A DNA stretch of 42,263 nucleotides from an uncultured Acidimicrobiales bacterium (lineage in GTDB: Bacteria > Actinomycetota > Acidimicrobiia > Acidimicrobiales > SHLQ01): the NCBI GenBank assembly GCA_964494395.1, contig CAZBTI010000005.1, positions 12,830 through 55,092 of the forward strand, read 5' to 3'. A model generated the notes under the pieces. That model had not been told where the DNA came from and did no database searches. It saw only the letters and a program-made list of their open reading frames with translations. The position numbers and the translations under genes were made by a program. Shown piece after piece: positions 11,247 through 29,125 of this stretch. Positions within the stretch are counted from its first letter, which is position 1; the number at the start of each line of letters is the position of its first letter.

Positions 11247-11287
11247 TGCGGCCAAGGTTACAGAGGCCACCCGGTACGCTCGTGGCA

Positions 11288-15750: not shown

Positions 15751-15773
15751 GGAAGTGAGCTCTCCTACGCTTA

Positions 15774-16238
15774 TTATCGCACACTTCCGGCCAATTTTGC
15801 TACTAATCCGCCAAGTGTGTCTTTCGTTATCTCATCGGAATCGAGAGATCCTGCGGTCAACAAAAGCAATTCGTCGATGGCATCAACCGGCCCGCCAGTG
15901 GGGTACCACAGCGGATCCAAGATCTGCATAGACCAACCCGGGAAGACACGATCCGTGCCTCCCAACTCGGCCACGGTCATGAGTTGATGTCGATCATCCT
16001 CTTCAATTCGCCCAAATACTGACCTAACAGCCGAGCGCTCACCCTCCAAATACTGGGTGAAACGCCCATCCCGGTAGCTGAGATAGCCAGTAATCCCGAG
16101 AAGAGCGTTCGATGCGCTCGAGTGAACTCCCAATTCTTGGAGTGACACATCGTCAAAAGGTACGAGCGCCCTGCTGAGATACAGCATGGAGAACACCTCG
16201 CCTTGGTCACTCTCGTTGGAAAATCCACTATTTGCCAC
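15774..16238 (-). CDS. Stand-alone BLUF blue-light sensor protein
   Basis: LYLS (Tyr), N..LGITGYL, FTQYLEG (Gln), RIEEDDRH, RVFPGWSM; start codon uncertain (16238 or 16187). Confidence 0.92.
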   Translation of the reverse strand: MANSGFSNESDQGEVFSMLYLSRALVPFDDVSLQELGVHSSASNALLGITGYLSYRDGRFTQYLEGERSAVRSVFGRIEEDDRHQLMTVAELGGTDRVFPGWSMQILDPLWYPTGGPVDAIDELLLLTAGSLDSDEITKDTLGGLVAKLAGSVR

Positions 16239-16491: not shown

Positions 16492-16833
16492 TTACCCACC
16501 TTCGGTGAACGCTGATTTCGCGTGATCGAAGATTTTGCCCAACGCCACCCGCTGGGTAGGTTTCGCCATCTGTGCGCCGAGCACCTCGGTACGAGCCGCT
16601 GTGGCTCCACCCGTGCGGAAAAATCTCCGCCGGACCGTGCCGAGCACAACCACTTCGTCGCCAGCGCCCACAGCCTGAACCTTCCGATCGGCATCCTCCC
16701 ACTGCACCGGAACGGTGTGTGCAGCACCGGATTCGAGTGCACGGACCTCCCAGTTCGTAACCGTTACCCCCGATGCCAGGGTCCGTTCAGTCGGCTCATC
16801 CAACACTGTCCCGCGCAAAACCACGATATTCAT
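16492..16833 (-). CDS. Short single-stranded DNA-binding (OB-fold) protein, SSB paralogue lacking the acidic tail
   Basis: MNIVVLRG..P..RTLASG, GDEVVVLGTVRRRFF..RTEV. Confidence 0.75.
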   Translation of the reverse strand: MNIVVLRGTVLDEPTERTLASGVTVTNWEVRALESGAAHTVPVQWEDADRKVQAVGAGDEVVVLGTVRRRFFRTGGATAARTEVLGAQMAKPTQRVALGKIFDHAKSAFTEGG

Positions 16834-16960
16834 GACCTGTATCCATCATCTGTATGAAGCTGCGGGGGAAGCGCTACATCAGACGCTAGACGTGGGGTAT
16901 GACAAGCGCCGCGGTCATCGAACACCAACCCCTTTTCGAGGTCGAAAGAGAACTGACGCG

Positions 16961-18046
16961 TCAGGTGGTTGAGCCCTCGTAGAGCGGGCCGTGCTCCAAT
17001 TTCGTCAGCACGTGTTTGGCGAACAAATCCGCCTCGGCGGCGTGCGTGTAGCCACTCAGAATGAACGCTCCGACGCCAACTTCTTGATATGCACGGATCT
17101 TTGCGAGCACCTGATCGGGGTCACCAACGATCGCTGCACCAGCGCCACTGCGAGCGCGCCCAACACCAGTCCACAGGTTCTCTTCGACGAAGCCATCGTC
17201 TTCTGCCGCGTCACGAAGCTCGTTCTGACGAGCGACCCCCGCCGATGCGGTGTCGAGCGACTTCTGGCGGATCTTCTCGCCCTCTTCAACATCGAGCTTC
17301 GAGAGCAACCTGGTCGCTGCCTGCCGGGCCTCCACCTCGGTCTCACGCACGATGACGTGCGCTCGCAGTCCGTACTTCAGAGTGCGATCGAAACCCTTCG
17401 CCCTGCCGACCATGTCGTCGATAGTCGCCGCAACGCCTGCGACGGTGTCGGGCCAAGTGAGGAACACGTCGGCATGCTCGGCGGCGGTGTCCTTCGCCGC
17501 GGGACTAAAGCCGCCGAAGTAGAAGGGCGGGCTCTTGCCCGAAACGGTTCGCATCCGGGGAGGGTCGACCTTCACCTTCACAAACTCACCGTCGAAATCG
17601 ATCGACTCGCCGTTCAGCAGCGCCCGCAGAACGTGCATCCACTCCCGTGTGCGTTGATAGCGGGGTTCGCTCTCCAAGGGAGCCCCGGGGATATCACTCG
17701 AGATGATGTTGATGGTGAGCCGACCGTTTGCCATCTGATCGATCGTGGCCAACTGTCGTGCGAGCTGAGGTAACCACATCTCGCCCATGCGAACCGCTGC
17801 CAGTAACTGGATCTGCTCAGTGTGCGTCGCAATCGCCGCAGCAAACGACGTGGTGTCCATGCCAAGGTCATAGCCCGACGGCAGTAACACGTTGTCGAAT
17901 CCAAGACGATCGGCGGTCTGAACGATACTCGAACAGTGCGCCCATGAGCTCTTCAAATGATCCTCAGGGACCCCGAGATACTCATAGTCGTCGTCACATA
18001 GTGCGCCGAACCAAGAGATCTCCGGGGTAGTGACTGGTTGGCTCAT
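16961..18046 (-). CDS. smoC: LLM-class flavin monooxygenase, sulfoquinovose monooxygenase (SmoC/SquD)-like
   Basis: EISWFGALCDDDYEYLGVP..KSSWAHC, NIISSD, FYFGGFS, YGLRAHVIVR, LWTGVGRARSGAGAAIVG, FILSGY match SmoC/SquD as I recall them; coupled to an aldo-keto reductase. Confidence 0.8.
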   Translation of the reverse strand: MSQPVTTPEISWFGALCDDDYEYLGVPEDHLKSSWAHCSSIVQTADRLGFDNVLLPSGYDLGMDTTSFAAAIATHTEQIQLLAAVRMGEMWLPQLARQLATIDQMANGRLTINIISSDIPGAPLESEPRYQRTREWMHVLRALLNGESIDFDGEFVKVKVDPPRMRTVSGKSPPFYFGGFSPAAKDTAAEHADVFLTWPDTVAGVAATIDDMVGRAKGFDRTLKYGLRAHVIVRETEVEARQAATRLLSKLDVEEGEKIRQKSLDTASAGVARQNELRDAAEDDGFVEENLWTGVGRARSGAGAAIVGDPDQVLAKIRAYQEVGVGAFILSGYTHAAEADLFAKHVLTKLEHGPLYEGSTT

Positions 18047-18951
18047 GGCAATGGAACTCCTTCGCTAGCAGCGACGATTTCGTAGACGTCCTGGCGATCG
18101 AGCGACACGTCGAACGCAGCAGCAGCCGAAATGAGTCGTGCTGGCGTTTGGGTACCGAGGAGAGCAACGGGCTTGGACGGGTTCGCGAGAACGAAGGCTG
18201 TTGCGATCGCGGCACGGTCGACGCCCTCGCGTTCCGCGAGACGGTCGACGACCTCGAGCAGTTCTGGACGAATGCCATCGCCACTAAACAAGCGGCCACC
18301 GGCGAGCGGGCTCCATGCCATTGGAACAACGCCGTCGCGCATAGCTCGATCGAACGTGCCATCGCGCATTGGTTGCAACTGGGCTACCGAGAATTCCGGT
18401 TGGGTCGACACGATCGGGTGCGTGAGGTGCGCAGAGAGCGCGTCGTACTGATCAACCGTGAAGTTGGAGACACCAACCATGCCGATTTTGCCCTCATCGA
18501 TGAGCGCATCGAGCGTCGCAGCGACAACGGCTGGGTGGGTGAACATGTCGGGACGGTGGATCTGCCACAGATCGATGTGTTCGACCCCGAGACGGGTGAG
18601 CGAGGCCTCGACCGCCGAGCGCAGATATTCAGGGCTCGAGTCGTAGGGCAGCGGCGGCATGATCCCGCCCTTGGTCGCCAGCACCATCCGATCACGCAGC
18701 GACGGGTCTGCGGCCAACACCGCGCCCAACTTCTCTTCGTTCTGGCCAAACCCAGTGCCACCATGATCGAGGCCGTACACGTCGGCGGTGTCGATGAGGT
18801 TCATGCCCGCACTCAACGCGGTTTCGATGAGTTCTTGGTTGATCGTCGTGTCGTCGGCGGTCAGACGCCACGTGCCGTATCCAACGGCGCCAATCTCTGG
18901 TCCATCAACGCCCAACTTGCGGGCGGCAGCGTTCACAAGGTTCGAAGTCAT
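18043..18951 (-). CDS. smoB: Aldo/keto reductase, probable 6-oxo(dehydro)glucose reductase (SmoB/SquF-like)
   Basis: GTWRL, DTADVYG, LATKGGI, IHRPD, GVSNF, MAWSPLAGG; 4-nt overlap with smoC. The specific role is inferred from context. Confidence 0.7.
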   Translation of the reverse strand: MTSNLVNAAARKLGVDGPEIGAVGYGTWRLTADDTTINQELIETALSAGMNLIDTADVYGLDHGGTGFGQNEEKLGAVLAADPSLRDRMVLATKGGIMPPLPYDSSPEYLRSAVEASLTRLGVEHIDLWQIHRPDMFTHPAVVAATLDALIDEGKIGMVGVSNFTVDQYDALSAHLTHPIVSTQPEFSVAQLQPMRDGTFDRAMRDGVVPMAWSPLAGGRLFSGDGIRPELLEVVDRLAEREGVDRAAIATAFVLANPSKPVALLGTQTPARLISAAAAFDVSLDRQDVYEIVAASEGVPLP

Positions 18952-18984
18952 AGGCGCTAGCGTAGCCCATCGAGCCAGTTCGTG

Positions 18985-18998
18985 TGCAAGCGTTTACA
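18985..18998. promoter_or_regulatory. LacI-type operator in the divergent smoB/sqgA promoter
   Basis: TGCAAGCGTTTACA fits TGNAANCGNTTNCA; lies between -10-like boxes at 18959-18964 (minus) and 19024-19029 (plus); overlapped by TTTACAT-atc-ATGTAAA (18993-19009). Confidence 0.7.
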
Positions 18999-19035
18999 TA
19001 TCATGTAAAATCAACGTTTATGGTACGATAGCCAA

Positions 19036-20202
19036 ATGAGCAGTTCGCATATCCGATACGGGATCATCGGAACCGGCATGATGGGCATCGAGCACATCGA
19101 GAACATCTTGGCGCTCGATGACACTTCGGTCGTTGCGATCGCCGACACCGACGCTGGTTCGCGTGAGACCGGCGCAGTGCACGCCGGACCCGATTGTGTG
19201 GCTTACGAAGACTACGAAGACCTGTTGGCCGACCCAAACGTCGATGCCGTCGTCGTCGTAACTCCGAACTTCACCCACATCGACGTGATGACGAAGGTCA
19301 TTGCTTCTGGCAAGCACGTGCTTTGCGAGAAACCACTCTGCACCACCGCGTCCGACTGCAACACGCTGATCTCATTGTCCGAAGGCTACGACGGCGTGAT
19401 CTGGGTGGGCCTCGAGTATCGCTACATGCCTGCGGTCGACGCGCTCATTAGCCAAGTTCGCGACGGTTTCGTCGGCGATGTGCAGATGGTTGCTATCCGC
19501 GAGCACCGCTTTCCGTTCCTTGAGAAGGTCAACCACTGGAATCGCTTCAACAAGAACAGTGGAGGCACCTTGGTCGAGAAGACCTGCCACTACTTCGACC
19601 TCATGAACCTCATCATTGGCGAGCATCCCTTGCAGGTATTCGCGTCCGGAGGACAAAACGTCAACCACCTCGACGAGGTCTACGACGGCGAGACGAGCGA
19701 TATTTTCGACAACGCATACGTCATCATCGATTATCCGAACGGTGTCCGCGCAATGCTCGATCTCTGCATGTTTGCCGAAGCGACAAGGGATCAAGAAGAG
19801 CTCTCGGTCGTAGGGAACCTCGGAAAACTCGACGCTCGGATCCCTACCTCAGAACTCCATCTGGGCAAGCGATCGGGCAAAGGCCTGGCCGATATCGGCG
19901 TGGTCGAGACTCGCCCAATCACCAACGACGAGATTCGCCACACCGGCTTACACCACGGCGCCAGCTACCTCGAACACGTCGACTTCGCCGACGCCGTGAG
20001 GACGCATCGTGCTGCCCGCCTAGCAGCAGTCGACGCCGGCCAGTCGACCGAAGACGCAATCGCTGCCGCCAGTAACGCTGTCGATGCACTCGACACGCTC
20101 GTCAACCTCGACGACGGACTCTGGTCGGTTGCGATCGGCCAAGCCGCCCACCTCTCAATCGCCGAAAACCGGCCAGTAGCCCTCTCCGAAATCATCGACT
20201 AG
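19036..20202 (+). CDS. sqgA: Gfo/Idh/MocA-fold protein, probable GH188 NAD+-dependent sulfoquinovosidase (SqgA-like)
   Basis: GTGMMGIEH, CEKP, GLEYRY, IREHRFPFLEKVNHWNRF, GGTLVEKTCHYFDLM, LDLCMFAE, GLHHGASYLEH; divergent from smoB-smoC. Confidence 0.75.
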   Translation: MSSSHIRYGIIGTGMMGIEHIENILALDDTSVVAIADTDAGSRETGAVHAGPDCVAYEDYEDLLADPNVDAVVVVTPNFTHIDVMTKVIASGKHVLCEKPLCTTASDCNTLISLSEGYDGVIWVGLEYRYMPAVDALISQVRDGFVGDVQMVAIREHRFPFLEKVNHWNRFNKNSGGTLVEKTCHYFDLMNLIIGEHPLQVFASGGQNVNHLDEVYDGETSDIFDNAYVIIDYPNGVRAMLDLCMFAEATRDQEELSVVGNLGKLDARIPTSELHLGKRSGKGLADIGVVETRPITNDEIRHTGLHHGASYLEHVDFADAVRTHRAARLAAVDAGQSTEDAIAAASNAVDALDTLVNLDDGLWSVAIGQAAHLSIAENRPVALSEIID

Positions 20203-20288
20203 TCAACTCCAGGGTCAGACCCTCCAGTTGACCACCAACCACTCCCCTCCCCAAAGGTAAATCCCAGGGTCAGACCCTTGGATTGACC
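20201..20288 (+). repeat. Two REP-like imperfect palindromes left of RAYT
   Basis: AGTCAACTCCAGGGTCAGACCCTCCAGTTGACC (20201-20233) and GGTAAATCCCAGGGTCAGACCCTTGGATTGACC (20256-20288). Confidence 0.85.
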
Positions 20289-20398
20289 TTGAACCTGTTT
20301 CGCTGTCAGACCATCACAGTAAGTTCGCGAGTGAGCTCGTTCACAGCTCACTTCTCGGTGACTTCATCGCCCTCCTCCCTTCAAGACAGAGGGCCAAC

Positions 20399-21349
20399 AT
20401 GGCGAGACCACTACGGATCGACTTTCCCGGCGCGTTCCATCACGTAATGAACCGTGGAGCAGATCACCAGGACACCTATCGGAACAGGCTCGACAAAGCG
20501 CTGTTCCTGACGCTGTGGGAGCAGGCAACATCTCGGTTTGGGATCGAGGTGATCTCCTATGCACTCATGGGGAATCACTACCACGTCTTTGTCCATTGTC
20601 CTGATGGGCAACTGAGTAGAACAATGCAGTACATCGGCCGGGCTTACACCCAAGAGTTCAATCTGCACCATGACAGAGATGGGGCCCTCTTTCGAGGCCG
20701 CTTTCACTCAGTCCTAGTCGATAGCGAAATGTACTTTGCCCGCGTCGCTCGCTACATCGAGCTCAATCCTGTTGCAGCTGGCATCTGCGCAATGGATGAA
20801 CTGAGGAGATATGAGTGGTCTAGCTACCGCTATTCATCTGGCGAAGTCGACTCCCCATACTGGTTGTCGACGCGACATTTGAGAACACGATTCACACAGA
20901 TCGACTACCGCGATTTCGTTGAGGCTGGCGCCCCCGATGACCGCCTCAAGAAGTTCTACGACAGGTCTCGAAAGACTCGAAACATCCTCGGCTCTCCTGC
21001 ATTTGTTGAGCGAATCTCGAAATCGCACCCAAACATCCCTGTCATGGACGGTTGCGCCATTGAATCTCCGACGTTGCCGGAGATTGAGGCGGCGGTGATC
21101 GAAGTCGCAGGTGTTTCGTATCGAACAATCGCAGCTCCGTCGCGCCTCCGTCACCCCGCCCGCACAACCGTGATCATTCTCTGTTCTTTGTTGACCGACG
21201 AACCCAGAGCCCTCTTGGCCGATCGCTTTGGGTTCTCATCAGCTTCGTCATTCGTCAAGGCGGTGACTCAAGCGAAGACAGCACCGGTTGCAGAAGAAGT
21301 CGCAACGTTGCAAGCGCAAGTTCTAGAACGCTTGAGGAATCGGGGGTAA
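20399..21349 (+). mobile_element. REP-associated tyrosine transposase (RAYT, HUH/Y1) with a C-terminal DnaA_C-like HTH
   Basis: MARPLRI..PGAFHHVMNRG, ALMGNHYH (HUH), GALFRGRF, RYIELNP (catalytic Tyr), YEWSSY; palindromic repeats on both sides. Confidence 0.92.
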
Positions 21350-21434
21350 ACCGGAGGGTCTGACCCCGGAGTTGACCGCCGGAGTGCGATGGGTGTTCGG
21401 AGGTGCATGGGAGGGTCTGACCCCGGGATTGACC
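21345..21434 (-). repeat. Two REP-like palindromes right of RAYT, inverted relative to the left pair
   Basis: 21345-21377 (reverse complement GGTCAACTCCGGGGTCAGACCCTCCGGTTTACC, 29/33 identical to the first left unit) and 21402-21434 (reverse complement GGTCAATCCCGGGGTCAGACCCTCCCATGCACC). Confidence 0.85.
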
Positions 21435-21493
21435 ACCGGAGGGGACCGCCGACGATGATCAACCCTGAGGCCGAACTTTGGGGGAACTGTCGC

Positions 21494-22447
21494 CTAACCC
21501 TTGACCGACCCGGCGAGCAGACCTCGCACGAAGTACCGCTGGAGGCTAAAGAACACCGCGATTGGAACGAATGCCTGAACGAACGCTCCAGCGGTGAGGA
21601 GGTGTTCAGTGTCGGTGAAGTCGCCGGACAGGTTGGCGATACGGACCGTGGTGGGAGCGTCAGAACCAATGCCGAGCATCGTGTTGGCGATGAGGAAGTC
21701 GTTCCATGTCCAGAGGAACTGGAAGATCCCGAACGCTGCGAGCGCCGGGACCGAGAGCGGCAGGACGAGTCGCCAGAAGATGCCGAAGTGATTCGCACCA
21801 TCGATCTTGGCCGACTCAAAGATGTCCTTTGGAAGCTGCGAGATGTAGTTGTGTAGCAAGAAGATCGCAAACGGCATCGCGAAGCCCGTATGCGTGAGCC
21901 AAACAGAGGTAGTCGTGCCCGCCAAATTGTTGAGTGGTAGCAACGTCAGCGTCTTGTCGGTGAGAGGAACCGTGAGGTGAGCGCCACCGAACGGGTCGCC
22001 GTCACCAAACAACTGGAGCAAGGGAATCAGCGCAACCTGAAGTGGCAACGCCAGCAGCGAAACGGTCACGATAAACAACCACTTGCGCCCTCTGAAGTCG
22101 ATCCACGCAAAGCCATAGGCGGCAAAGGCAGCGAAAGCGATCGGGATAATCGTCGCTGGGATGGCGATAGCAAGACTCGTCACCAACGATGCGGTCAGAC
22201 TGTTGGTCGCTCCAGCGGACAAAACCTCGGCGTAGTTCTCGAGCGTGATTTCCGGTTCGAGAAGGATGTTCCAGAATGCATTTCGTCGCTGGCCATCGCG
22301 GCTGCGAAACGAGTTGACGGCGAGGCTCAGATTCGGGATCGTCCAAATTGCGACGATGGCCCACATCGCCCACGTCGGAACATCGCTCAACCTCTTGTAG
22401 AGACGGTCGCCCAGACCGCCCCCAGTTGCGGGACCAGTAGCGGTCAT
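21494..22447 (-). CDS. Carbohydrate ABC transporter permease (MalG/AglG-like)
   Basis: AAFAAYGF, PLQVALIP, EAA loop IFESAKIDGA, QFLWTWNDF, QRYFVRGLLAGSVKG. Confidence 0.93.
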   Translation of the reverse strand: MTATGPATGGGLGDRLYKRLSDVPTWAMWAIVAIWTIPNLSLAVNSFRSRDGQRRNAFWNILLEPEITLENYAEVLSAGATNSLTASLVTSLAIAIPATIIPIAFAAFAAYGFAWIDFRGRKWLFIVTVSLLALPLQVALIPLLQLFGDGDPFGGAHLTVPLTDKTLTLLPLNNLAGTTTSVWLTHTGFAMPFAIFLLHNYISQLPKDIFESAKIDGANHFGIFWRLVLPLSVPALAAFGIFQFLWTWNDFLIANTMLGIGSDAPTTVRIANLSGDFTDTEHLLTAGAFVQAFVPIAVFFSLQRYFVRGLLAGSVKG

Positions 22448-24588
22448 GCGTGTCCCTTCTGCAAGTTATAGATGTTGTAGACCATCACCGGAAGGACGAG
22501 TAGGAACATCACGATCGCGATCGCTGCTCCGAAGCCGACGTTTCCGATCTGGAACGACTCGGTGATCATCTGGTTTGCCAAGACGTCGTTGCCGAAGGTT
22601 CCGCGAAGACCAGCAACATTGACGATGTCGAAGACTTTGGTCACCTGAACGATGAGCGTGGTGACCACCACGCCGATCGTCGGGAAGATAGTGGGCAAAG
22701 TCACCTTGAAGAAGATGTCGGCATCGGTGGCCCCATCGACCCTGGCGGACTCGATGAACTCTTGGGGGACGGCCTTGATCGCCGCCGAGATAATGACCAT
22801 GGCGAAGCCGGTCTGAATCCAAATGAGGATCAACATGAGCCAAACATTGTTGAAGGGCTGCTCGGTCAGGAATTGAATCGTCTCGGGCACTAACTCACCC
22901 TGGGCATTGGTGGTGAATCCGCCGAGTCGGGGCCCGATGAAGCGGTATGTCAGCCAAGCGGAAATGAACAAACCAATGGACGCACCAGTGAACGCTCGGT
23001 CGGCGCGAACACGGCGCAAGATTTCGAACGCAAATGCCACCGTCAACGCTCCGAAGAGCACGATCATCACAATTCGCGGAGCGCCCGAGTTGCTCAGCTC
23101 ACCTAAAGCCACCCAAACCGCGTTTAGCGTTCCGGTCTGGCTCTGACTGATCGGGCGGGCTTGGAACTGCAGTCGCCACACGATCGATGCGCCAACGAAC
23201 GAGATTGCCATCGGCATGAAGATGAGGCTCTTGGCGAGGCTCTCCCCCACCTTTGCCCGATCGGACAAGACAGCGATGGCGGTGCCAGCCACAGTCGAGA
23301 CCGTGACCACGGTGAGGACCCACCAGATGTTGTTGAAGAACGTTCCTCGCAATACGGACAACGCAGCGAAGGATGCCAAGAAGAGCGCAAGGAAGATCGC
23401 TCCCATTGCCGTTGGACCGCTCTCGATGGATGCGTGACCGTTGCGACGAATACCTCCAACTACCGAAACGAGAGCGGCGATGACCAAGAGGATCAGTGCG
23501 GCGTAGAACAACCGAGAGGTAAAGAACGCAGCCCAGTTCGAGGTATCGAAGGAGTCTGACGCCGTAAACAGCCGTTGATAATTCGCGAGCTGGACGAACT
23601 CATCGCCGTCGCGATCCGTGAACGAAAGAATGCCGGTTCGAACCGTTGGGATGACCAGAGAAATGAGGAGAAACGAAAGCGCCGGACCAACAAAGATCGC
23701 TGCTCGTGCTCGGCTATCGAATAGGGCCCGTTCACGATGACTTGGAGCAGCCTGCCAACCCGCACCCGCCATCAAGAGGACCAGCGGTGGGATCGTCGAA
23801 ATCAACGGCACGTCGGCGACGACTTCGAACGGCGAGAGCAACCATCCTCCGATCGCCCAGCCAATTCCGGCGCCAATGAGCGCTCCGCGAATCGGATCAC
23901 CGGCCCTGCCAGTAATCAAGGCGCCGAGCGCTCCAAAGATCAGAACCGCAATGATGATGGCGACAAAGTTTGGGTCCGGGCGTTGCAGCACACGAGTGTT
24001 GCTCGCAACAAGAAACCCTCCGACCGCTCCGACCGCCACCGCGAGTCCCAATCGCCCAGCCAGGATCGGAATCGACTTGATGATGAAGAGACCACCACCG
24101 AACAGAAGTGCGCCGAGAACCGGCCACTCGAGGTGACCGAGTAGGCCAACGCCGACGGCTTCGCGCACGAGCAATGGGTCGAGCCCTTCGAACCCTGGAG
24201 CGACGTCTGCAAGCAGCGGCCCCACCGAGCGATTACCACGCAACAGGCCAAAGAAAGCCGCTCCGAGCGTCGCCCCGACGATCCCCGAAAATACGCTCCA
24301 TCGTCGAGCGGACTGATTCACGAAGACGTTCAGCAGAACCCAAAGTCCAATGCAGACCACAACCGATATCAACACGGTGGCGAGCATTCGCAGGACGCGC
24401 TGGAAGTCGCTGCTCGTCATGACCCCGACCGCACCGCCATCGTTCGCGATGACGAGGACGAAGGCTCCACCAAAGATGACGACGAACCCGAGGATCGCTT
24501 TGAATGGACTCGACTTTGAAAGCCGGGCGAGCCCGTAAATCGCCAGAATAACAAGGGCTATGAGAACAATGGCTCCGAGCCACAGCAT
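22444..24588 (-). CDS. Extended carbohydrate ABC transporter permease (MalF/AglF-like)
   Basis: KSLIFMPMAISFVGAS, WIQTGFAMVI, ESARVDGA, KVFDIV; long additional hydrophobic N-terminal region. Confidence 0.88.
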   Translation of the reverse strand: MLWLGAIVLIALVILAIYGLARLSKSSPFKAILGFVVIFGGAFVLVIANDGGAVGVMTSSDFQRVLRMLATVLISVVVCIGLWVLLNVFVNQSARRWSVFSGIVGATLGAAFFGLLRGNRSVGPLLADVAPGFEGLDPLLVREAVGVGLLGHLEWPVLGALLFGGGLFIIKSIPILAGRLGLAVAVGAVGGFLVASNTRVLQRPDPNFVAIIIAVLIFGALGALITGRAGDPIRGALIGAGIGWAIGGWLLSPFEVVADVPLISTIPPLVLLMAGAGWQAAPSHRERALFDSRARAAIFVGPALSFLLISLVIPTVRTGILSFTDRDGDEFVQLANYQRLFTASDSFDTSNWAAFFTSRLFYAALILLVIAALVSVVGGIRRNGHASIESGPTAMGAIFLALFLASFAALSVLRGTFFNNIWWVLTVVTVSTVAGTAIAVLSDRAKVGESLAKSLIFMPMAISFVGASIVWRLQFQARPISQSQTGTLNAVWVALGELSNSGAPRIVMIVLFGALTVAFAFEILRRVRADRAFTGASIGLFISAWLTYRFIGPRLGGFTTNAQGELVPETIQFLTEQPFNNVWLMLILIWIQTGFAMVIISAAIKAVPQEFIESARVDGATDADIFFKVTLPTIFPTIGVVVTTLIVQVTKVFDIVNVAGLRGTFGNDVLANQMITESFQIGNVGFGAAIAIVMFLLVLPVMVYNIYNLQKGHA

Positions 24589-24648
24589 GGGTGGTAAGTG
24601 CTCCTAAATAGCGCAACCGACAAGCTCATGCCGGTGAAAGTGTGGAGC

Positions 24649-24719
24649 CTGTGGGGATGACAACCCATCCCCACAGACCCAATTTCAGTTCTCGATCGAG
24701 GTCTCAGGCGACCTCGATC
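24649..24719 (-). terminator. Two tandem hairpins between the solute-binding protein gene and the permease gene
   Basis: CTGTGGGGATG-acaacc-CATCCCCACAG (24649-24676) and GATCGAGGTC-tcaggc-GACCTCGATC (24694-24719), both perfect stems. Confidence 0.7.
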
Positions 24720-24726
24720 CGGGTAT

Positions 24727-26226
24727 TTAGTTTGTTGGCCAGAAGGTATCGATCTCGGCCGTGCCGTCTTCGATCGAGACATCTCCGTTGACGATCTGCG
24801 TACCAACTTCCCAGAACGCATTGTTGACGTCGCCACCAATGAGGTCAGAAGCGTCGAATCGGAACACATCAGCGTCCTGAAGGATCTGGACGAAGTTCGC
24901 CTCCAGTGGGTTCCACAGCGATGGATCAGCGCCGGTGTTCGCGGTCACGAAGCCCGAGAGGACGAGCTCCTCACTTTCACCTTGAAGTAGCGCTTGCTGT
25001 GCTGCCTGTCGAGCATTTGCGTACTCGGGGCTAGCAAAGTACTCCATCACGGCCCAAACCTCTGGGCGATCGTTGAAGGCACCAACGAAGGTTCCGCCAC
25101 CGAGGACTGGACGGTCGGTGCCGTTACCTGGGAAGAAGAACACGTCGACTGCATCTTCGGTGCCGTCAGCCACGGGGGTTCCTTCTGGGAAGAAGGAGGC
25201 AAAGAACGATGCCTGACGGTGCATGAAGCAGTCTCCGTTGACAAGCGGTTCACCGTTTGCCTGGAAGGCAGTGGTAGCGATGCTGCCACCGGCAGCAAAG
25301 ACCGCGCCTGGCTTGTTCCACTCGTCGATGATGATCTGGAAAGCGTTGGTGAGCTCAGGACTCGAAAAGGTCAGCTCGCCTGCAACCCATGCGTCGTAAT
25401 TCTCCGGGGTGGTGGTTCGAAGCATGATGTCTTCGACCCAGTCAGTGAATGGCCAACCGGTTGCGCCACCCGACTCGATGCCGACACACCATGGGGTGTT
25501 GCCGTCGGCGATCATCGTGTCGCTAAGTGCGAACAGATCGTCGAGGCTCTCGGGGATTTCGTAGCCGGCTGCTTCGAAGCGAGCTGGCTGGTACCACACG
25601 AGCGACTTGAGGTCGTTCTTGTTTGGAAGACCGAACTGGGTGCCATCGAAGTTTGCAAAGTTGATCGCATCTTCGGTCCAGTTCGCCGAAGCTGCTTCGA
25701 TGATCTCGGCTGGAACTTCTTGTACGTGTCCTGCGTCGGCGGCATCGCGAAGGTTGCCGGGCTGCGGGAACACCGAGATGTCTGGGTTGGTGCCAGCCTC
25801 GAGCTGGATGTTGATCTCGGTCTCCCAGTCGGCTGAGCCCTGGTAGATGATCGAGATGCCGTTTGCATTGCCGAACTCTTGGAGCGCCTGGTTCAGTGCG
25901 CCCGCTTCAGCTTCGGAGCGCTCTGGCCCGGAAACGGTAACGACCGGAACCGATCCGTCGTCGTCGCCGCCAGCGCCGGCTTCTGCTTCGAGTTCTGCGA
26001 CTCGTTCCTCAGCCTCGGCTTGGGCAGCTTGGGCCGCTGCGAGTGCATCGTCACCGCCGCCGTCGTCGCCCCCATCGTCGGAACTCTCTTCTTCGCTGTC
26101 AGCTGTCTCTTCGGCGGCATCATCCCCGCCTGCAGCACTATCTGTTGTTGCAGTGCTACCGCACGCCGCAGCAACCAACGACATTGCAAAAAGTGTCGCA
26201 AGCAGCTTCATCCACTTACTTCTCAT
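24727..26226 (-). CDS. Sugar ABC transporter substrate-binding lipoprotein (AglE-like)
   Basis: Lipobox LVAAAC; PQPG, KSLVWY, PWCVGIESGGATGWPFTDWVED, CFMHRQASF, FRFDASD. Confidence 0.9.
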   Translation of the reverse strand: MRSKWMKLLATLFAMSLVAAACGSTATTDSAAGGDDAAEETADSEEESSDDGGDDGGGDDALAAAQAAQAEAEERVAELEAEAGAGGDDDGSVPVVTVSGPERSEAEAGALNQALQEFGNANGISIIYQGSADWETEINIQLEAGTNPDISVFPQPGNLRDAADAGHVQEVPAEIIEAASANWTEDAINFANFDGTQFGLPNKNDLKSLVWYQPARFEAAGYEIPESLDDLFALSDTMIADGNTPWCVGIESGGATGWPFTDWVEDIMLRTTTPENYDAWVAGELTFSSPELTNAFQIIIDEWNKPGAVFAAGGSIATTAFQANGEPLVNGDCFMHRQASFFASFFPEGTPVADGTEDAVDVFFFPGNGTDRPVLGGGTFVGAFNDRPEVWAVMEYFASPEYANARQAAQQALLQGESEELVLSGFVTANTGADPSLWNPLEANFVQILQDADVFRFDASDLIGGDVNNAFWEVGTQIVNGDVSIEDGTAEIDTFWPTN

Positions 26227-26267
26227 AGGGGTCCCCTCCATGTTCAACGCGTCCGGCTCATGCGGAC

Positions 26268-26281
26268 TGTAAACGTTTGCA
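26268..26281. promoter_or_regulatory. LacI-type operator upstream of the solute-binding protein gene
   Basis: TGTAAACGTTTGCA near-palindrome. Confidence 0.75.
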
Positions 26282-26460: not shown

Positions 26461-27507
26461 CTACGAGGCCACCGTCGAGGCCCGAACGACCAACTCGATC
26501 TGGTCTGTACTCGCGGCGAGGTCAGCTCTTGCCTCCTCTTCCGATGGCTCGAAGGCTCCCTCATCATCGATCAGTCGCAACAATCGCTCGGCTGCCGCAG
26601 CGCCCAACTCTCGTGGAGCGAGGCGAATAGTGCTCAGCCCCACCATCGACGCCAGTTCATGATCGTCGATGCCGATCACCGCAATATCGTCCGGCCAGGA
26701 CAGGCCGCGCTCCTGCAATGCTCCGTAGGCTCCGAACGCCATCTCATCTGACAGCGCAAACACCGCGGTGGGCGGGTCGTCGAGGTCGAGCAGACGCTCC
26801 ATTGCCCGCCGGCCGCCTTCGGCGGTAAAGAACCCAGAGTTTTCCAGCGAGGTATCGATCGAGATTCCTGCTGACGCGAGCGCAGCGGTATAGCCGGCGA
26901 TCCGAAGTCCGGGGACCGAGAAGGCAAGGGGGTGGTTTGGCTCACCGGAGATCAAGCCGATGCGGCGATGCCCGATATCGAGCAGGTGCTTTGTTGCGAC
27001 AAGGCCGACCTGGTAATCGTCGACCACCACCGAAGGGAACTTCTCGGTGCGAAAGCCCGCCGTCACCGCATTGATTCCCGCAGCGTGCAACTTCGACGCC
27101 GCCTCTTCGGAGATGTTGAGGTCGACAACGATCAGACCGTCGACTCGCTTTTCGAGACGGAGCATCTCGTCGAGGAAGGCCTTTCGCTGTTCAGGGTTCT
27201 CGATCGGGTGAGAGATCGCCTCGTAGCCCCGACCCAAGAGCAGTTCGATCGCTCCAGCGATGAACCGCGAGAAGTACCACCCATCGACCGTCGGAGTGAG
27301 CAGCTGCACGAGGTTGGTACGGCCGGTCGCGAGGCGAGCCGCACTCGGGTCGGCCCGGTAGTTCATCTCTTGGGCAATCGCTTCGACGCGGCTTCGAGTT
27401 CCTTCGGCCACATTCGGGAGTCCGCGTAGCGCACGTGACACCGTCGCCACAGAGACTCCCGCTTCGCGTGCGACATCTTCGATCGATGGTCCGCGACCCC
27501 GCCTCAT
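26461..27507 (-). CDS. LacI family transcriptional regulator
   Basis: SIEDVAREAGVSVATVSRAL HTH, LLDIGHRRIG, PPTAVFALSDEMAFG, IGIDDH. Confidence 0.96.
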   Translation of the reverse strand: MRRGRGPSIEDVAREAGVSVATVSRALRGLPNVAEGTRSRVEAIAQEMNYRADPSAARLATGRTNLVQLLTPTVDGWYFSRFIAGAIELLLGRGYEAISHPIENPEQRKAFLDEMLRLEKRVDGLIVVDLNISEEAASKLHAAGINAVTAGFRTEKFPSVVVDDYQVGLVATKHLLDIGHRRIGLISGEPNHPLAFSVPGLRIAGYTAALASAGISIDTSLENSGFFTAEGGRRAMERLLDLDDPPTAVFALSDEMAFGAYGALQERGLSWPDDIAVIGIDDHELASMVGLSTIRLAPRELGAAAAERLLRLIDDEGAFEPSEEEARADLAASTDQIELVVRASTVAS

Positions 27508-29081
27508 GAACCGATCACCATCATGATGCGAGCCTCATCGGGGCCGAGCGTCGTTCTCGATTCTCGGGCCTCATCGAGGGTCGAGAACAGCAGCTCGCCT
27601 TGAAGGGGCGAGTTCGTACGATCATTAGAAATATTTGCCATGAACACAATGTCTCCTCGACGGAAGGCGACCACGCTCTCACCGGCGTCGACCCACTCGA
27701 GGTCGGTGGTAGCGATGTGGGTCAGCTTCTTCCGTACGCCGATGAGTTCGCGGTAGCGATACAGCATCGACTCGGGGTCGTTTCGTTGGGTCTGCACCGT
27801 GTCGGCATCCGTGCGACCGCCAAAGGGAAGCCACGGAGCAATGCCGGGTTGGGTGAAGCCCATTCCCTCGCCAGGTTCCCAAGGGATTGGGGTTCGGGTT
27901 CCATCTCGTCCGGCGTTGGGGTCATCGCCGCCGACCGGATCGAGTTTGTCGCCAGGGGCCACTTCCCCACTCTCGAGGCCGAGCTCCTCGCCCTGAAACA
28001 GGAAGGGCATTCCCGGAAGCCCAGCGAGAAGGACTGCGAGGCTCAACGCCCGGCGGCGTCCAATATCGCCCTCACCGAAGCGAGTGACCGAGCGGTGTTC
28101 GTCATGGCTGTTCTGCGCCCAACCGAGCCCGGCCGAGATGTTTGCGAGCGGTAGGTCGAACGTCGACCGGATCGACTCGACGGTCCAGTCGAGATGCATG
28201 GCGCCGAACCAGAAGCCCACGTGGAGAGCATCGCCTCCCGAGAGCAGGCGGTCGAGTTTGTCGAGGCTCACCAAGTCGTATGTCTCGCCGAGTAGGAGCG
28301 CGTCATACTCGGCTGCGATGTCGTTCCACGACTGGAAGATCTCGAGGGTCTCGGGCTGGAGGGTGTCGTATTGATGATCAAAGCAGCCCCACTCTTCCCA
28401 TCGCTGCATCGATGGCTCGACCGGCTTGAGCTGCGGGTTCGACCGAAGGGCCTCATCTTTGACCAACCCCTGAGCAACGTCGATCCGGAACCCGTCGACG
28501 CCTCGGTCAAGCCAGAACCGGAGGATGTTCTCGAACTCGGAGCGCACCGCCGGGTTCCGCCAGTTGAGGTCGGGCTGCTCGGCGAAGAACAGGTGAAGGT
28601 AGTACTGGTTGGACAGCGGCTCGAGCGTCCAGGTCGGACCCCCGAAGTACCCCACCCAATTGTTTGGCAGCGATCCGTCCGCGGGAGGGTCTTGCCAGAT
28701 GTAGTAGTCGCGGTACTCACTAGTCGGGTCGGCGAGCGCTTTCTGAAACCACACGTGTTGGTCGCTGGTGTGATTCGGAACGATGTCGATGATGACCTTT
28801 AGGCCGAGCTGGTGCGCCTTCTCGACCACCGCGTCGAAATCGTCGAGTGTTCCGTAGGTCGATTCGATCCTGGTGAAGTCAGCAACGTCGTAACCCCAGT
28901 CGCGCATCGGCGAGGAATAGAACGGCGTGATCCAGAGCACGTCGACACCCAACCAGGCGAGGTAGTCGAGCTTGTCGACCATGCCAATAAAGTCGCCGAT
29001 ACCGTCGCCATTTCCATCGGCGAACGATCGGATGTAGATCTCGTACCCAACGGCGTGCTGCCACCAATCATCGTTTGCCAT
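27504..29081 (-). CDS. GH13 alpha-glucosidase (oligo-1,6-glucosidase-like)
   Basis: WW...[36 protein letters not shown] (nucleophile), GE, NSHD, RDGTRTP; start ATG 29081 with TACATT 7 nt upstream. Confidence 0.93.
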
Positions 29082-29085
29082 GACA

Positions 29086-29125
29086 GCGAATGTAATCATT
29101 TACATTCGCAATGCAAAAGTTTGCA
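29086..29125. promoter_or_regulatory. Two operator-like palindromes over the GH13-lacI promoter
   Basis: GCGAATGTAA-tcat-TTACATTCGC (29086-29109, core TGTAATCATTTACA) and TGCAAAAGTTTGCA (29112-29125). Confidence 0.7.

What the first reader, a model, noticed from the sequence alone, without database searches (positions are those of the whole stretch)
16961..20202. Putative sulfoquinovose monooxygenase pathway using a GH188 oxidoreductive sulfoquinovosidase in an Acidimicrobiia-like actinobacterium
Seen: three generically annotatable genes (LLM, AKR, Gfo/Idh/MocA) form a divergent unit with an 84-bp shared promoter. Knowledge: the LLM's WFGALCDDDYEYLGVP and LWTGVGRARSG segments match SQ monooxygenases SmoC (Agrobacterium) and SquD (Novosphingobium), which work with an AKR (SmoB/SquF) to turn SQ into 6-oxo-glucose and then glucose, releasing sulfite. 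The REHRFPFLxKV..WNRF, GGTLVEKxCH and HHG motifs match GH188 (SqgA) NAD+-dependent sulfoquinovosidases as I recall them. Inference: SQ glycoside -> SQ -> glucose. As far as I know this pathway was characterised in Proteobacteria, typically with a GH31 enzyme, so an actinobacterial GH188-based version would widen the known sulfolipid degraders.
Basis: partly seen in the sequence, partly recalled or inferred. Interest (0 to 1): 0.85.

Follow-up and report, generated by a model that had tools for sequence, protein, structure and literature searches.

The report
Sulfoquinovose breakdown genes in a marine Acidimicrobiia
This marine actinobacterium carries a known type of gene set for splitting the plant and algal sulfosugar sulfoquinovose into glucose and sulfite, together with a likely importer and repressor, which adds an abundant aquatic group to the probable consumers of this sugar.

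Summary
The three genes, the 84-bp divergent spacer and all quoted motifs are at the stated coordinates.

The interpretation also holds. The monooxygenase matches solved SmoC at 356 bits against 226/204 for MsuD/SsuD, and falls on the SmoC/SquD side of a 100/100 tree split. The reductase matches SmoB best. The Gfo/Idh/MocA protein matches the two founding GH188 sulfoquinovosidases at 310/301 bits (next family 104) and keeps every published catalytic and sulfonate-binding residue.

In 300 other genomes of the class, all 50 with the monooxygenase also have the GH188 gene, within 3 kb in 30.

The system is larger than reported, about 16961-29099. It includes a sugar ABC importer that in relatives sits in one array with the reductase and monooxygenase. 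The importer also accompanies the GH188 gene beside sulfo-TAL-like and sulfo-EMP-like genes. A LacI repressor and a 14-bp operator at both promoters complete it. No flavin reductase is linked.

Novelty is modest. GH188 within sulfo-SMO clusters was published in 2023, and such clusters in Actinomycetota were noted in 2026. This is a new member of a known kind, and no activity has been measured.

The parts
16961..18046 (-). SQ monooxygenase, SquD/SmoC type (FMNH2-dependent, luciferase-like), 361 aa
   Evidence: PDB phmmer gives 7oh2 RoSmoC 355.8 bits and 7olf AtSmoC 347.5, against MsuD 226.3 and SsuD 203.9. The tree split is 100/100. W198, R228, H230, Y333, H335, Y130 and the FGGFS serine are conserved.
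18043..18951 (-). 6-oxo-glucose (6-dehydroglucose) reductase, SquF/SmoB-type aldo-keto reductase, 302 aa; 4-bp overlap with the monooxygenase gene
   Evidence: Best PDB match is SmoB 7bbz/7bby at 154 bits; the next is YdhF at 117. D54, Y59, K94, H132, R133, W213 and F222 are conserved. It shares the short loop of the sphingomonad type. An AKR is adjacent in 80 of 80 closest loci.
18952..19035 (.). 84-bp divergent spacer between the reductase-monooxygenase operon and sqgA
   Evidence: No sigma-70 consensus was found in it.
18985..18998 (.). LacI-type operator O1, TGCAAGCGTTTACA
   Evidence: One of only 2 matches to TGNAANCGNTTNCA in the window, against 0.04 expected. The same position holds the motif in 12 related loci.
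19036..20202 (+). GH188-type NAD+-dependent sulfoquinovosidase SqgA, 388 aa
   Evidence: PDB phmmer gives 8qc3 ArSqgA 309.6 bits, 8qc2 FlSqgA 301.2 and 8zn9 295.9; the next family scores 103.6. K99, Y128, E156, R158, L162, K164, E181, H185 and H306 are the equivalents of ArSqgA K107, Y136, E164, R166, L170, K172, E189, H193 and H321. All but L162 (18 L, 2 F) are invariant in 20 of 20 sequences.
20020..20100 (+). 27-residue Ala-rich insert in SqgA (residues 329-355), absent from 19 relatives and from the Sphingobium, Ruegeria and ArSqgA proteins
   Evidence: Alignments. Contigs of two samples cover it without indels.
21494..22447 (-). ABC importer permease 2 (317 aa)
   Evidence: BPD_transp_1 and GlcU-like. 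A homologue lies within 6 kb of the monooxygenase gene in 54 of 80 closest loci.
22444..24588 (-). ABC importer permease 1 (714 aa; the transport domain is only at residues 573-703, after a long membrane-rich N-terminal part)
   Evidence: Homologues are 643-775 aa in relatives.
24727..26247 (-). Solute-binding lipoprotein of the importer (506 aa from the TTG; lipobox LVAAAC, then an acidic linker), a candidate SQ-glycoside binding protein
   Evidence: No Pfam hit. Only weak matches to sugar-binding proteins, best 3zkk at 2e-08. Of 27 genomes with an orthologue, 24 have SqgA, and in 12 the gene lies within 10 kb of SqgA or SmoC. The array LacI-SBP-Perm-Perm-AKR-SmoC occurs in L043-L045.
26268..26281 (.). 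LacI-type operator O2, TGTAAACGTTTGCA, 21 bp upstream of the binding-protein ORF
   Evidence: The motif lies upstream of the binding-protein gene in 27 of 43 related loci that hold that gene.
26461..27507 (-). LacI-family repressor (348 aa), the candidate regulator of the locus
   Evidence: Pfam LacI and Peripla_BP_3. It occupies the same position in L017, L019 and L043-L045.
27504..29099 (-). GH13 alpha-glucosidase-like enzyme (531 aa); its role in the system is uncertain
   Evidence: Alpha-amylase domain at 2e-107. It lies beside the module also in L010 and L039, and in 3 of 80 closest loci. A GH13 found in a Marinovum sulfo-SMO cluster was shown not to be an SQase (bioRxiv 10.1101/2023.03.31.535182, passages).

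Best explanation
The locus encodes a sulfolytic sulfoquinovose monooxygenase pathway (sulfo-SMO, also called sulfo-ASMO) with a GH188 gateway enzyme.

Inferred flow:
- SQ glycosides such as sulfoquinovosyl glycerol are taken up by the adjacent ABC importer, a lipoprotein binding protein plus two permeases. Its ATPase is encoded elsewhere.
- SqgA cleaves the glycoside through transient NAD+-dependent oxidation at C3.
- The SquD/SmoC-type monooxygenase uses FMNH2 and O2 to cut the C-S bond, giving sulfite and 6-oxo-glucose.
- The SquF/SmoB-type aldo-keto reductase reduces this to glucose.
- FMNH2 comes from an unlinked flavin reductase, as proposed for Novosphingobium aromaticivorans.
- A LacI-family repressor binds 14-bp operators in the sqgA/reductase spacer and in front of the importer genes, so that enzymes and importer form one regulon.

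Shown here: the homology, residue conservation, phylogeny, synteny and motif placement. Inferred: every activity, the importer's substrate, and the repressor-operator pairing.
For: Enzymes:
- Each protein's best solved relative is the matching characterised enzyme, by a wide margin. The PDB codes were tied to SmoC, SmoB and SqgA through the papers.
- Residues are conserved in all three.
- In the tree, 28 SmoC/SquD-side rows, including 21 Acidimicrobiia, separate from 6 SsuD/MsuD-side rows at 100/100 support.
- Identity is 62-65% to sphingomonad and rhizobial proteins that lie next to an AKR, 48% to the Ruegeria SmoC (itself 683 bits to AtSmoC), and 32.5-37.5% to SsuD/MsuD rows.
- The own genome has no second SsuD-like gene and no GH31 hit at 94.6% completeness.

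Co-occurrence:
- 50 of 300 other class genomes have the monooxygenase and 72 of 300 have SqgA.
- All 50 of the former are among the 72. The two genes are 3 kb apart or less in 30.

Importer:
- Permease 2 lies within 6 kb of the monooxygenase gene in 54 of 80 closest loci. The commonest layout, 22 of 80, is SBP-Perm1-Perm2-AKR-SmoC on one strand.
- The importer also lies beside SqgA in 5 genomes without the monooxygenase. Two of these neighbourhoods were annotated. One carries transaldolase, isomerase-like, Ldh_2 and altronate-dehydratase-like genes; the other carries PfkB kinase and DeoC/LacD aldolase genes.

Operator:
- 2 matches in the window against 0.04 expected.
- 59 matches in 1.43 Mb of 108 related loci: 27 upstream of the binding-protein gene, 12 in the SqgA/AKR spacer and 4 upstream of LacI.

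Flavin reductase:
- Three PF01613 genes lie elsewhere in the genome.
- The review PMC9594981 (passages) says N. aromaticivorans also lacks a linked one.
Against: - No activity, expression or binding datum exists. No RNA run holding the stretch was listed.
- The reductase lacks the 9-residue loop that carries SmoB Lys120, a glucose contact. Asn285 is Gln.
- There is no flavin reductase in the window, and I annotated no sulfite exporter or sulfite oxidase in it.
- The SmoC residues I mapped are shared with SsuD/MsuD, so they do not prove SQ specificity. No SmoC-SQ complex has been solved.
- The binding protein shows no detectable similarity to SmoF. More distant relatives of it (41% identity or less) are common in genomes without SQ genes; 122 of 301 genomes match at E<=1e-40.
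- I wrote the operator pattern after seeing the two sites. In 8 related divergent spacers that I read, no site came closer than 3 mismatches.
- The 20 neighbourhoods were picked by me from the 32 genomes where the two genes lie 6 kb apart or less.
Confidence: 0.85

Rival explanations
1. Only the three enzyme genes act on SQ. The ABC importer, LacI repressor and GH13 form an ordinary alpha-glucoside (maltose, trehalose or sucrose type) uptake system that merely lies next to them.
For: GH13 alpha-amylase domain at 2e-107. The layout LacI + binding protein + two permeases + GH13 is a classic alpha-glucoside layout (my knowledge). The GH13 in a Marinovum sulfo-SMO cluster is an alpha-glucosidase and not an SQase. 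Binding-protein relatives are widespread, 122 of 301 genomes. There is no similarity to SmoF.
Against: The orthologue group (44% identity or more) tracks SQ genes. Of its 27 genomes, 24 have SqgA, against 72 of 300 overall. The importer genes stand in one co-directional array with the reductase and monooxygenase. They also accompany SqgA beside two other SQ-pathway-like gene sets. The same operator sits in the sqgA/reductase spacer. GH13 itself is rare beside the module, 3 of 80 loci.
Confidence: 0.2
2. The genes are a general sulfonate sulfur-scavenging set: an SsuD-like alkanesulfonate monooxygenase with unrelated oxidoreductases, the Gfo protein being an inositol or sugar dehydrogenase.
For: The best NCBIfam models are SsuD (268.6 bits) and inositol 2-dehydrogenase (131.3 bits). 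Sources name close homologues 'alkanesulfonate monooxygenase'.
Against: Both scores are far below the curated cut-offs of 518.2 and 355. The tree split is 100/100 against SsuD/MsuD. The match to SqgA is 310 bits against 104 for the next dehydrogenase, and the sulfonate-binding R158 and K164 are kept. No ssuABC- or ssuE-type genes are linked. The habitat is a marine metagenome, where sulfate is plentiful (my knowledge).
Confidence: 0.03
3. The same enzymology acts on a different 6-sulfonated sugar or glycoside, for example sulfofucose conjugates or beta-linked SQ glycans, rather than on sulfolipid-derived SQGro.
For: GH188 enzymes cleave both alpha- and beta-SQ glycosides. The window's SqgA carries a unique 27-residue insert. 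The reductase differs from SmoB in a glucose-contacting loop. A sulfofucose pathway exists in other bacteria (PMC12421959, search listing only).
Against: All sugar-hydroxyl contacts of ArSqgA are invariant, including the C4-OH ligand Glu189 (here E181). The short reductase loop is shared with the Novosphingobium-type cluster, which carries a GH31 gene and glycerol genes.
Confidence: 0.07

Closest known systems
Novosphingobium sulfo-ASMO cluster (SquD monooxygenase, SquF reductase); stand-ins read here: N. pentaromativorans pLA3 and Sphingobium yanoikuyae pKN1
   Same: This is the nearest proteobacterial relative of the monooxygenase, at 62-65% identity, and of the reductase, at 43-47% with the same short loop. 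The order is AKR then LLM. There is no linked flavin reductase. A LacI regulator is present in N. pentaromativorans. Sphingobium has the identical divergent Gfo <-> AKR-LLM layout.
   Different: N. pentaromativorans uses a GH31 enzyme and carries glycerol kinase and dehydrogenase genes. Uptake genes there are TonB-dependent receptor or MFS types, not this ABC system. Orthology of these plasmid genes to the characterised N. aromaticivorans SquD/SquF is inferred and was not tested.
Agrobacterium tumefaciens smo cluster (SmoA-I; Sharma 2022, PMC8795539)
   Same: The same three chemical steps. The monooxygenase and reductase are the best PDB matches. Uptake is also through an ABC importer.
   Different: The SmoC clade is more distant, about 48% identity by its Ruegeria orthologue. 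Agrobacterium uses the GH31 SQase SmoI, a linked flavin reductase SmoA, and the binding protein SmoF, which shows no detectable similarity to the binding protein here. SmoB has the Lys120 loop.
Roseobacter-clade sulfo-SMO clusters with GH188 (Ruegeria sp. TM1040 megaplasmid, Marinovum algicola pMaD9)
   Same: GH188 together with SmoC and SmoB in one cluster in a marine bacterium. Kaur 2023 calls this near-universal in the clade.
   Different: Those clusters have a GntR regulator, a linked flavin reductase, and TRAP or other ABC transporters. Here the regulator is LacI-type, no reductase is linked, and the importer is a different one.
GH188 founders ArSqgA and FlSqgA (PDB 8QC3/5/6 and 8QC2/8)
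   Same: 310 and 301 bits, with all named catalytic and sulfonate-binding residues kept.
   Different: The Arthrobacter enzyme serves a sulfo-EMP pathway. The window's protein has a 27-residue C-terminal insert.
E. coli SsuD and Pseudomonas MsuD alkanesulfonate monooxygenases
   Same: The same fold and the same FMN and sulfonate residues.
   Different: 32.5-37.5% identity, a separate clade at 100/100, different N-terminal and LW(A/T)G motifs, and a score below the TIGR03565 cut-off.

Membership tests
SmoC/SquD sulfoquinovose monooxygenases | Luciferase-like (Bac_luciferase) two-component monooxygenase fold | tested here: met
   PF00296 at 4.3e-53 over residues 32-325.
SmoC/SquD sulfoquinovose monooxygenases | Closer to characterised SmoC than to SsuD/MsuD; on the SmoC/SquD side of the tree | tested here: met
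   356/347 bits against 226/204. The split has 100/100 support and branch length 1.38. The anchor row, Ruegeria, scores 683 bits to AtSmoC.
SmoC/SquD sulfoquinovose monooxygenases | Trp206-Arg236-His238-Tyr341-His343 constellation and FMN-phosphate Tyr136/Ser189 (RoSmoC numbering, PMC8795539) | tested here: met
   W198, R228, H230, Y333, H335, Y130 and the FGGFS serine are present. These residues are also kept in SsuD/MsuD, so the feature is necessary but not discriminating.
SmoC/SquD sulfoquinovose monooxygenases | Family-specific motifs SWF.ALC.DDY..LGVP and LWTG.G.ARSG | tested here: met
   Present in the window, in 3 Acidimicrobiia rows and in 5 proteobacterial rows. Absent from 6 SsuD/MsuD-side rows. 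I derived these motifs from that alignment; they are not a published definition.
SmoC/SquD sulfoquinovose monooxygenases | Sulfite release from SQ, not from SQGro or other sulfonates | not testable with these tools
   This needs an enzyme assay.
SmoB/SquF 6-oxo-glucose reductases (AKR) | AKR catalytic tetrad Asp71/Tyr76/Lys104/His151 plus Arg152, Trp232, Phe241, Thr284 and Arg289 | tested here: met
   D54, Y59, K94, H132, R133, W213 and F222 are kept, as are the Thr and Arg of GTQTPAR.
SmoB/SquF 6-oxo-glucose reductases (AKR) | Glucose contact Lys120 (SmoB) | tested here: not met
   The 9-residue loop that holds it is absent. The same gap occurs in the Novosphingobium and Sphingobium AKRs but not in the Ruegeria one. 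The protein is therefore SquF-like rather than SmoB-like.
SmoB/SquF 6-oxo-glucose reductases (AKR) | Gene next to the SQ monooxygenase gene | tested here: met
   4-bp overlap in the window. An AKR is adjacent in 80 of 80 closest loci and in 14 of 20 more distant ones.
GH188 NAD+-dependent sulfoquinovosidases (SqgA) | Rossmann N-domain plus Gfo/Idh/MocA C-domain, with nearest relatives ArSqgA and FlSqgA | tested here: met
   E 3.4e-91 and 1.2e-88, with the next family at 1.3e-28.
GH188 NAD+-dependent sulfoquinovosidases (SqgA) | Lys107, Tyr136, Glu189, His193 and His321, and the sulfonate triad Arg166, Leu170 (backbone) and Lys172 | tested here: met
   K99, Y128, E181, H185, H306, R158, L162 and K164. 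All but L162 (18 L, 2 F) are invariant in 20 of 20 sequences.
GH188 NAD+-dependent sulfoquinovosidases (SqgA) | Match to the CAZy GH188 C-terminal-domain HMM; cleavage of SQGro or PNP-SQ with NAD+ | not testable with these tools
   The CAZy model is not on hand, and the second point needs an assay.
SsuD alkanesulfonate monooxygenase (TIGR03565 equivalog) | Score over the curated cut-off | tested here: not met
   268.6 bits against a cut-off of 518.2.
sulfo-SMO gene cluster | SmoB and SmoC homologues co-located (criterion of PMC13372026: both within 10 ORFs) | tested here: met
   The two genes overlap. The criterion was read.
sulfo-SMO gene cluster | Linked flavin reductase SmoA | tested here: not met
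   No PF01613 gene among the window ORFs scanned. Three lie on other contigs. The Novosphingobium type also lacks a linked one.

The most novel reading that the evidence does not exclude
Acidimicrobiia, a group abundant in sea and fresh water, may be a large overlooked guild of sulfoquinovose consumers built on a modular gateway. The gateway would consist of a GH188 sulfoquinovosidase, a so far undescribed SQ-glycoside ABC importer, and a LacI-type repressor with a TGNAANCGNTTNCA operator that responds to SQ or SQGro. The importer's binding protein has no Pfam family, and its first permease carries a long membrane-rich N-terminal extension. This gateway would be plugged into at least three alternative downstream routes in different lineages: sulfo-SMO here, and sets resembling sulfo-TAL with sulfolactate cleavage and sulfo-EMP elsewhere.
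Probability: 0.45. Interest if true: 0.55.

Novelty: new member of a known kind. Interest (0 to 1): 0.35.

Why it matters
Sulfoquinovose is made on a scale of about 10 billion tonnes a year (Kaur 2023). In print, its marine turnover is credited mainly to Roseobacteraceae, Oceanospirillaceae and Alteromonadaceae.

In my sample of the class, 50 of 300 other species genomes hold the monooxygenase and 72 of 300 hold the GH188 gene. If the genes work as predicted, Acidimicrobiia should be counted in sulfonate-carbon budgets.

The importer and the repressor-operator pair would give new markers for SQ use in metagenomes. They would also give a testable SQ-responsive regulator.

None of this changes the known chemistry. 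Its value is ecological, and for annotation: sources name these genes 'alkanesulfonate monooxygenase' or 'LLM class flavin-dependent oxidoreductase'.

Tried and rejected
- **Promoter and terminator scan** of 16700-20500: nothing in the spacer, and counts at chance level.
- **RNA evidence**: no RNA holder was listed for the stretch. The 5 DNA holders come from 2 studies. Two of the runs may be the source sample.
- **Laying contigs**: it only showed that contigs of two samples of one study agree with the window, without indels. One joint skipping 20283-21345 rests on a 39-letter contig with 28 letters on its shorter side. I take it for REP-repeat cross-talk, not a deletion.
- **Earlier findings of this scan**: none, by place or by words.
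- **Flavin reductase, sulfite exporter or sulfite oxidase next to the genes**: none found in the window. Elsewhere the genome holds 3 PF01613, 4 TauE and 3 Oxidored_molyb matches.
- **Other neighbours of the core genes in relatives**: heterogeneous. They include CoA-transferase, EamA, Rieske oxygenase, cytochrome assembly genes and a PF03601 protein, and none is a flavin reductase.
- **Marinovum algicola pMaD9**, fetched to compare its GH13: no GH13 lies in that stretch.
- **First literature search**: the five-term search ranked papers without 'sulfoquinovose' and was useless. One search replaced it.
- **My ORF caller**: it is crude and missed some genes, including the AKR in several loci and the SqgA of L006. 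I therefore based counts on tblastn.
- **Not done**: I did not fold any protein, because the sequence matches to solved structures were decisive.

Full report
**1. What is there**

The window is contig C5:12830-55092 of a 3.68-Mb assembly with 285 contigs, 94.6% complete.

- 16961-18046 (-), 361 aa
- 18043-18951 (-), 302 aa, overlapping the first by 4 bp
- 19036-20202 (+), 388 aa

They leave an 84-bp divergent spacer. Pfam gives Bac_luciferase, Aldo_ket_red and the GFO_IDH_MocA N and C domains. All quoted motifs are in the translations.

**2. The monooxygenase**

Against all PDB chains, the best matches are 7OH2 (355.8 bits) and 7OLF (347.5). MsuD 7JV3 scores 226.3 and SsuD 1M41/1NQK scores 203.9. 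Sharma et al. 2022 (PMC8795539, passages) identify 7OH2 as Rhizobium oryzae SmoC and 7OLF as Agrobacterium SmoC.

NCBIfam's SsuD equivalog scores 268.6 bits, below its cut-off of 518.2.

A tblastn of PLSDB plasmids shows three tiers:
- 60-66% identity to Sphingobium, Sphingomonas, Novosphingobium and Rhizobium genes, annotated where annotation exists as lying next to an aldo/keto reductase (15 records)
- 48-51% to Roseobacter-group genes
- 41% or less to genes annotated ssuD or msuD

The Ruegeria sp. TM1040 gene from the middle tier scores 683 bits to AtSmoC. It sits in a Gfo/GntR/LLM/AKR/flavin-reductase/TRAP cluster. It therefore anchors the biochemically defined SmoC clade.

I built a maximum-likelihood tree of 34 proteins. 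These were the window, 20 Acidimicrobiia, 4 sphingomonad or rhizobial proteins, Ruegeria, Qingshengfaniella, Spirosoma, 5 annotated SsuD/MsuD and one Streptomyces LLM. The tree splits 28 SmoC/SquD-side rows from 6 SsuD/MsuD-side rows with 100/100 support and a branch of 1.38. The window sits in a 4-row Acidimicrobiia clade (100/98). The sphingomonad and rhizobial group nests among Acidimicrobiia rows (97/91 with L016). I do not interpret that as a direction of transfer.

The published constellation Trp206/Arg236/His238/Tyr341/His343 and the FMN-phosphate residues Tyr136/Ser189 are kept, as W198, R228, H230, Y333, H335, Y130 and the FGGFS serine. SsuD and MsuD keep them too.

The genome has no other SsuD-like gene. 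The next LLM hit has 31% identity and 66 bits.

**3. The reductase**

The best PDB matches are SmoB (7BBZ/7BBY, 154 bits). YdhF follows at 117. The tetrad Asp71/Tyr76/Lys104/His151 and Arg152, Trp232, Phe241, Thr284 and Arg289 are kept (for the residue list, for the alignment).

Lys120 lies in a 9-residue loop that the window's protein lacks. Asn285 is Gln. The same short loop is found in the AKRs of N. pentaromativorans (46.5% identity) and Sphingobium (42.6%), but not in Ruegeria (37.0%). The protein is therefore of the Novosphingobium (SquF) type.

According to the review PMC9594981 (passages), SquD and SquF were characterised in N. aromaticivorans DSM 12444, whose cluster also lacks a flavin reductase. 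I used N. pentaromativorans as a stand-in. Its orthology to the characterised proteins is inferred.

**4. The glycosidase**

The best PDB matches are:
- 8QC3/5/6 at 309.6 bits
- 8QC2/8 at 301.2 bits
- 8ZN9 at 295.9 bits, deposited only as 'Oxidoreductase, putative'

The next family, 3EZY, scores 103.6. Kaur et al. 2023 (PMC10755693, whole text read) assign these entries to ArSqgA and FlSqgA, the founders of GH188.

The paper names Lys107, Tyr136, Arg166, Leu170 (backbone), Lys172, Glu189, His193 and His321. PDB chain numbering is native numbering plus 13, and the printed alignment gives K99, Y128, R158, L162, K164, E181, H185 and H306. The paper's 'Glu163' maps to E156 if it is chain residue 177; the numbering is off by one.

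In an alignment of the window with 19 relatives, all are invariant except L162, which is L in 18 and F in 2.

The window's protein alone has a 27-residue Ala-rich insert, residues 329-355 (DNA 20020-20100). Contigs from two samples of one study cover this stretch with no indel.

**5. Conservation in the class**

Names that sources give to close homologues, and the titles of 80 related loci, are almost all Acidimicrobiales, Acidimicrobiia, Ilumatobacteraceae or Ilumatobacter MAGs. A few carry other labels: Verrucomicrobiales, Chthoniobacterales and Deltaproteobacteria.

In 300 other genomes sampled evenly from the class:
- 50 have the monooxygenase at E<=1e-60, with 54-76% identity
- 72 have SqgA, with 46-61% identity
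- all 50 of the former are among the 72
- the two genes are 3 kb apart or less in 30, 4.9 and 5.8 kb apart in 2, far apart on one contig in 4, and on different contigs in 14

Kin are not independent, so I give no test.

Of the 32 genomes where the two genes lie 6 kb apart or less, I picked 20 neighbourhoods. The AKR is adjacent in 14 of those 20. In the 80 closest loci (67-91% identity, flank 6 kb, some cut by contig ends), the AKR is adjacent in 80 of 80.

**6. The system is larger than the finding**

Downstream of sqgA, after an inserted element, lie these genes on the minus strand:
- two ABC permeases, 21494-22447 and 22444-24588
- a 506-aa lipoprotein with no Pfam family and only weak likeness to sugar-binding proteins, 24727-26247
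- a LacI repressor, 26461-27507
- a GH13 enzyme, 27504-29099

Three lines of evidence tie the importer to SQ.

(a) In the 80 closest loci, within 6 kb, permease 2 is present in 54, permease 1 in 40 and the binding protein in 32. The commonest layout, in 22 loci, is SBP-Perm1-Perm2-AKR-SmoC on one strand. In L043-L045 the array begins with LacI.

(b) Of 27 class genomes with a binding-protein orthologue (305 bits or more, 44% identity or more), 24 have SqgA and 15 have the monooxygenase. In 12 the gene lies within 10 kb of one of them. More distant relatives (41% or less) are common: 122 of 301 genomes at E<=1e-40. That tally includes the unpublished genome G254.

(c) In five genomes with SqgA but no monooxygenase, the importer lies 3-8 kb from SqgA. 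I annotated the genes between them in two.
- In L038 they are a transaldolase (TAL_FSA), a fucose-isomerase-like protein, a GAPDH-like protein and a 2-hydroxyacid dehydrogenase. Ldh_2 and altronate-dehydratase-like genes lie alongside.
- In L040 they are a PfkB kinase and a DeoC/LacD aldolase.

From my knowledge of the published pathways, these resemble sulfo-TAL with sulfolactate cleavage, and sulfo-EMP. That reading is recalled, not tested.

**7. Regulation**

The spacer holds TGCAAGCGTTTACA (18985-18998). TGTAAACGTTTGCA lies 21 bp before the binding-protein ORF (26268-26281). These are the only two matches to TGNAANCGNTTNCA in the window, against 0.04 expected, and two of 7 in the genome.

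I wrote the pattern after seeing the sites. It also fits the LacI-family consensus as I recall it. As an independent check, 108 related loci (1,432,069 bases) hold 59 matches. By the window's shuffle rate I would expect about 1.4.
- 27 lie upstream of the binding-protein gene, in 27 of 43 loci that have that gene
- 12 lie in the SqgA/AKR spacer, in 12 of 45 loci with both genes, all close relatives of the window
- 4 lie upstream of LacI
- 1 lies upstream of the AKR
- 15 lie elsewhere

In more distant relatives with the divergent layout, the spacer has no site within 3 mismatches. The pairing of this repressor with these sites is inferred.

**8. What is missing**

No flavin reductase lies in the window. 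Three PF01613 genes lie on other contigs. No GH31 hit was found in the genome at 94.6% completeness. That fits the complementary GH31/GH188 distribution reported by Kaur 2023. TauE (4 matches) and sulfite-oxidase-like genes (3 matches) exist elsewhere.

The GH13's role is open. A GH13 in a Marinovum sulfo-SMO cluster was shown to be an alpha-glucosidase and not an SQase (bioRxiv 10.1101/2023.03.31.535182, passages).

**9. Novelty**

- Kaur 2023 already reports GH188 in sulfo-SMO clusters, near-universal in Roseobacter and also in a Sphingomonas and a Mesorhizobium.
- Sphingobium pKN1 has the same divergent layout.
- PMC13372026 (passages) states that sulfo-SMO clusters are frequent in Actinomycetota and Spirochaetota among aquatic proGenomes genomes.
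- A full-text search for 'sulfoquinovose' with 'Acidimicrobiia' found 1 paper, which is irrelevant.
- 'Actinobacteri', 'Actinomycet', 'Acidimicrob' and 'Ilumatobacter' have no occurrence in the main text of PMC12780224 or PMC13436972.
- In PMC13372026, 'Acidimicrob' and 'Ilumatobacter' have none; 'Actinomycet' has 2.

Supplements were closed and may list such genomes.

I conclude that this is a new member of a known kind. The new elements are the class-level extent, the importer, and the repressor-operator pair.

Noticed in passing
window 20203-21493: A REP-associated tyrosine transposase gene (20399-21349, 316 aa; Y1_Tnp 1.8e-07, NCBIfam REP_Tyr_transpos 2.3e-12) lies between sqgA and the importer genes. 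It is flanked by two GGGTCAGACCC hairpin repeats upstream (20212, 20267) and two inverted GGGTCTGACCC repeats downstream (21356, 21413). The genome holds 37 such cores on 23 contigs, often in pairs about 100 bp apart, and only this one transposase gene. The gene sits at the same place in 6 of the 80 closest loci.
   Followed up: partly
window 20020-20100: An in-frame 27-residue Ala-rich insert in SqgA, just before the last conserved C-terminal segment. It is unique among the 20 sequences compared and is present in contigs of two samples. Its effect on the dimer or the active site is unknown.
   Followed up: partly
window 22444-24588; L017, L019, L038-L045: The first permease is 643-775 aa long, and the ABC transport domain covers only the last 130 residues or so. 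The long N-terminal part looks like many membrane helices and has no family match.
   Followed up: no
L038 (G198:C5) and L040 (G007:C1): Acidimicrobiia that have SqgA and the importer but no monooxygenase carry other gene sets between them. One has transaldolase, isomerase-like, Ldh_2 and altronate-dehydratase-like genes. The other has PfkB kinase and DeoC/LacD aldolase genes. This suggests other SQ routes in the same class.
   Followed up: partly
window 13737-16238: An FMN-dependent L-lactate-dehydrogenase-like gene (13737-14885, +), an AraC regulator (14878-15750, -) and a BLUF blue-light sensor protein (15774-16238, -) lie beyond the monooxygenase gene. The same trio is seen only in the closest relatives, 3-4 of 80 loci. 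No link to SQ is evident.
   Followed up: no
window 16492-16833 (-): A small 113-aa ORF just downstream of the monooxygenase gene, with no Pfam hit. By eye its sequence resembles an OB-fold single-strand-binding-like protein.
   Followed up: no
L004 (G014) 10315-11412 and L022: In two relatives a PF03601 (Cons_hypoth698) membrane protein follows the monooxygenase gene. PLSDB annotates 'putative sulfate exporter family transporter' genes near the Sphingobium and Ruegeria clusters. I did not test whether these belong to the same family. If they do, this could be the sulfite or sulfate exit in those genomes.
   Followed up: no
genome contig C20:26193 and 26348: Two further exact copies of the operator pattern (TGTAAACGTTTACA) lie 155 bp apart on another contig. 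They may mark another LacI-type regulon or further members of this one.
   Followed up: no
L049, L058, L060: Three of the 80 closest loci come from MAGs labelled Verrucomicrobiales, Chthoniobacterales and Deltaproteobacteria, although their monooxygenase is 78-85% identical to the window's. This is probably mis-binning or mislabelling rather than transfer.
   Followed up: no
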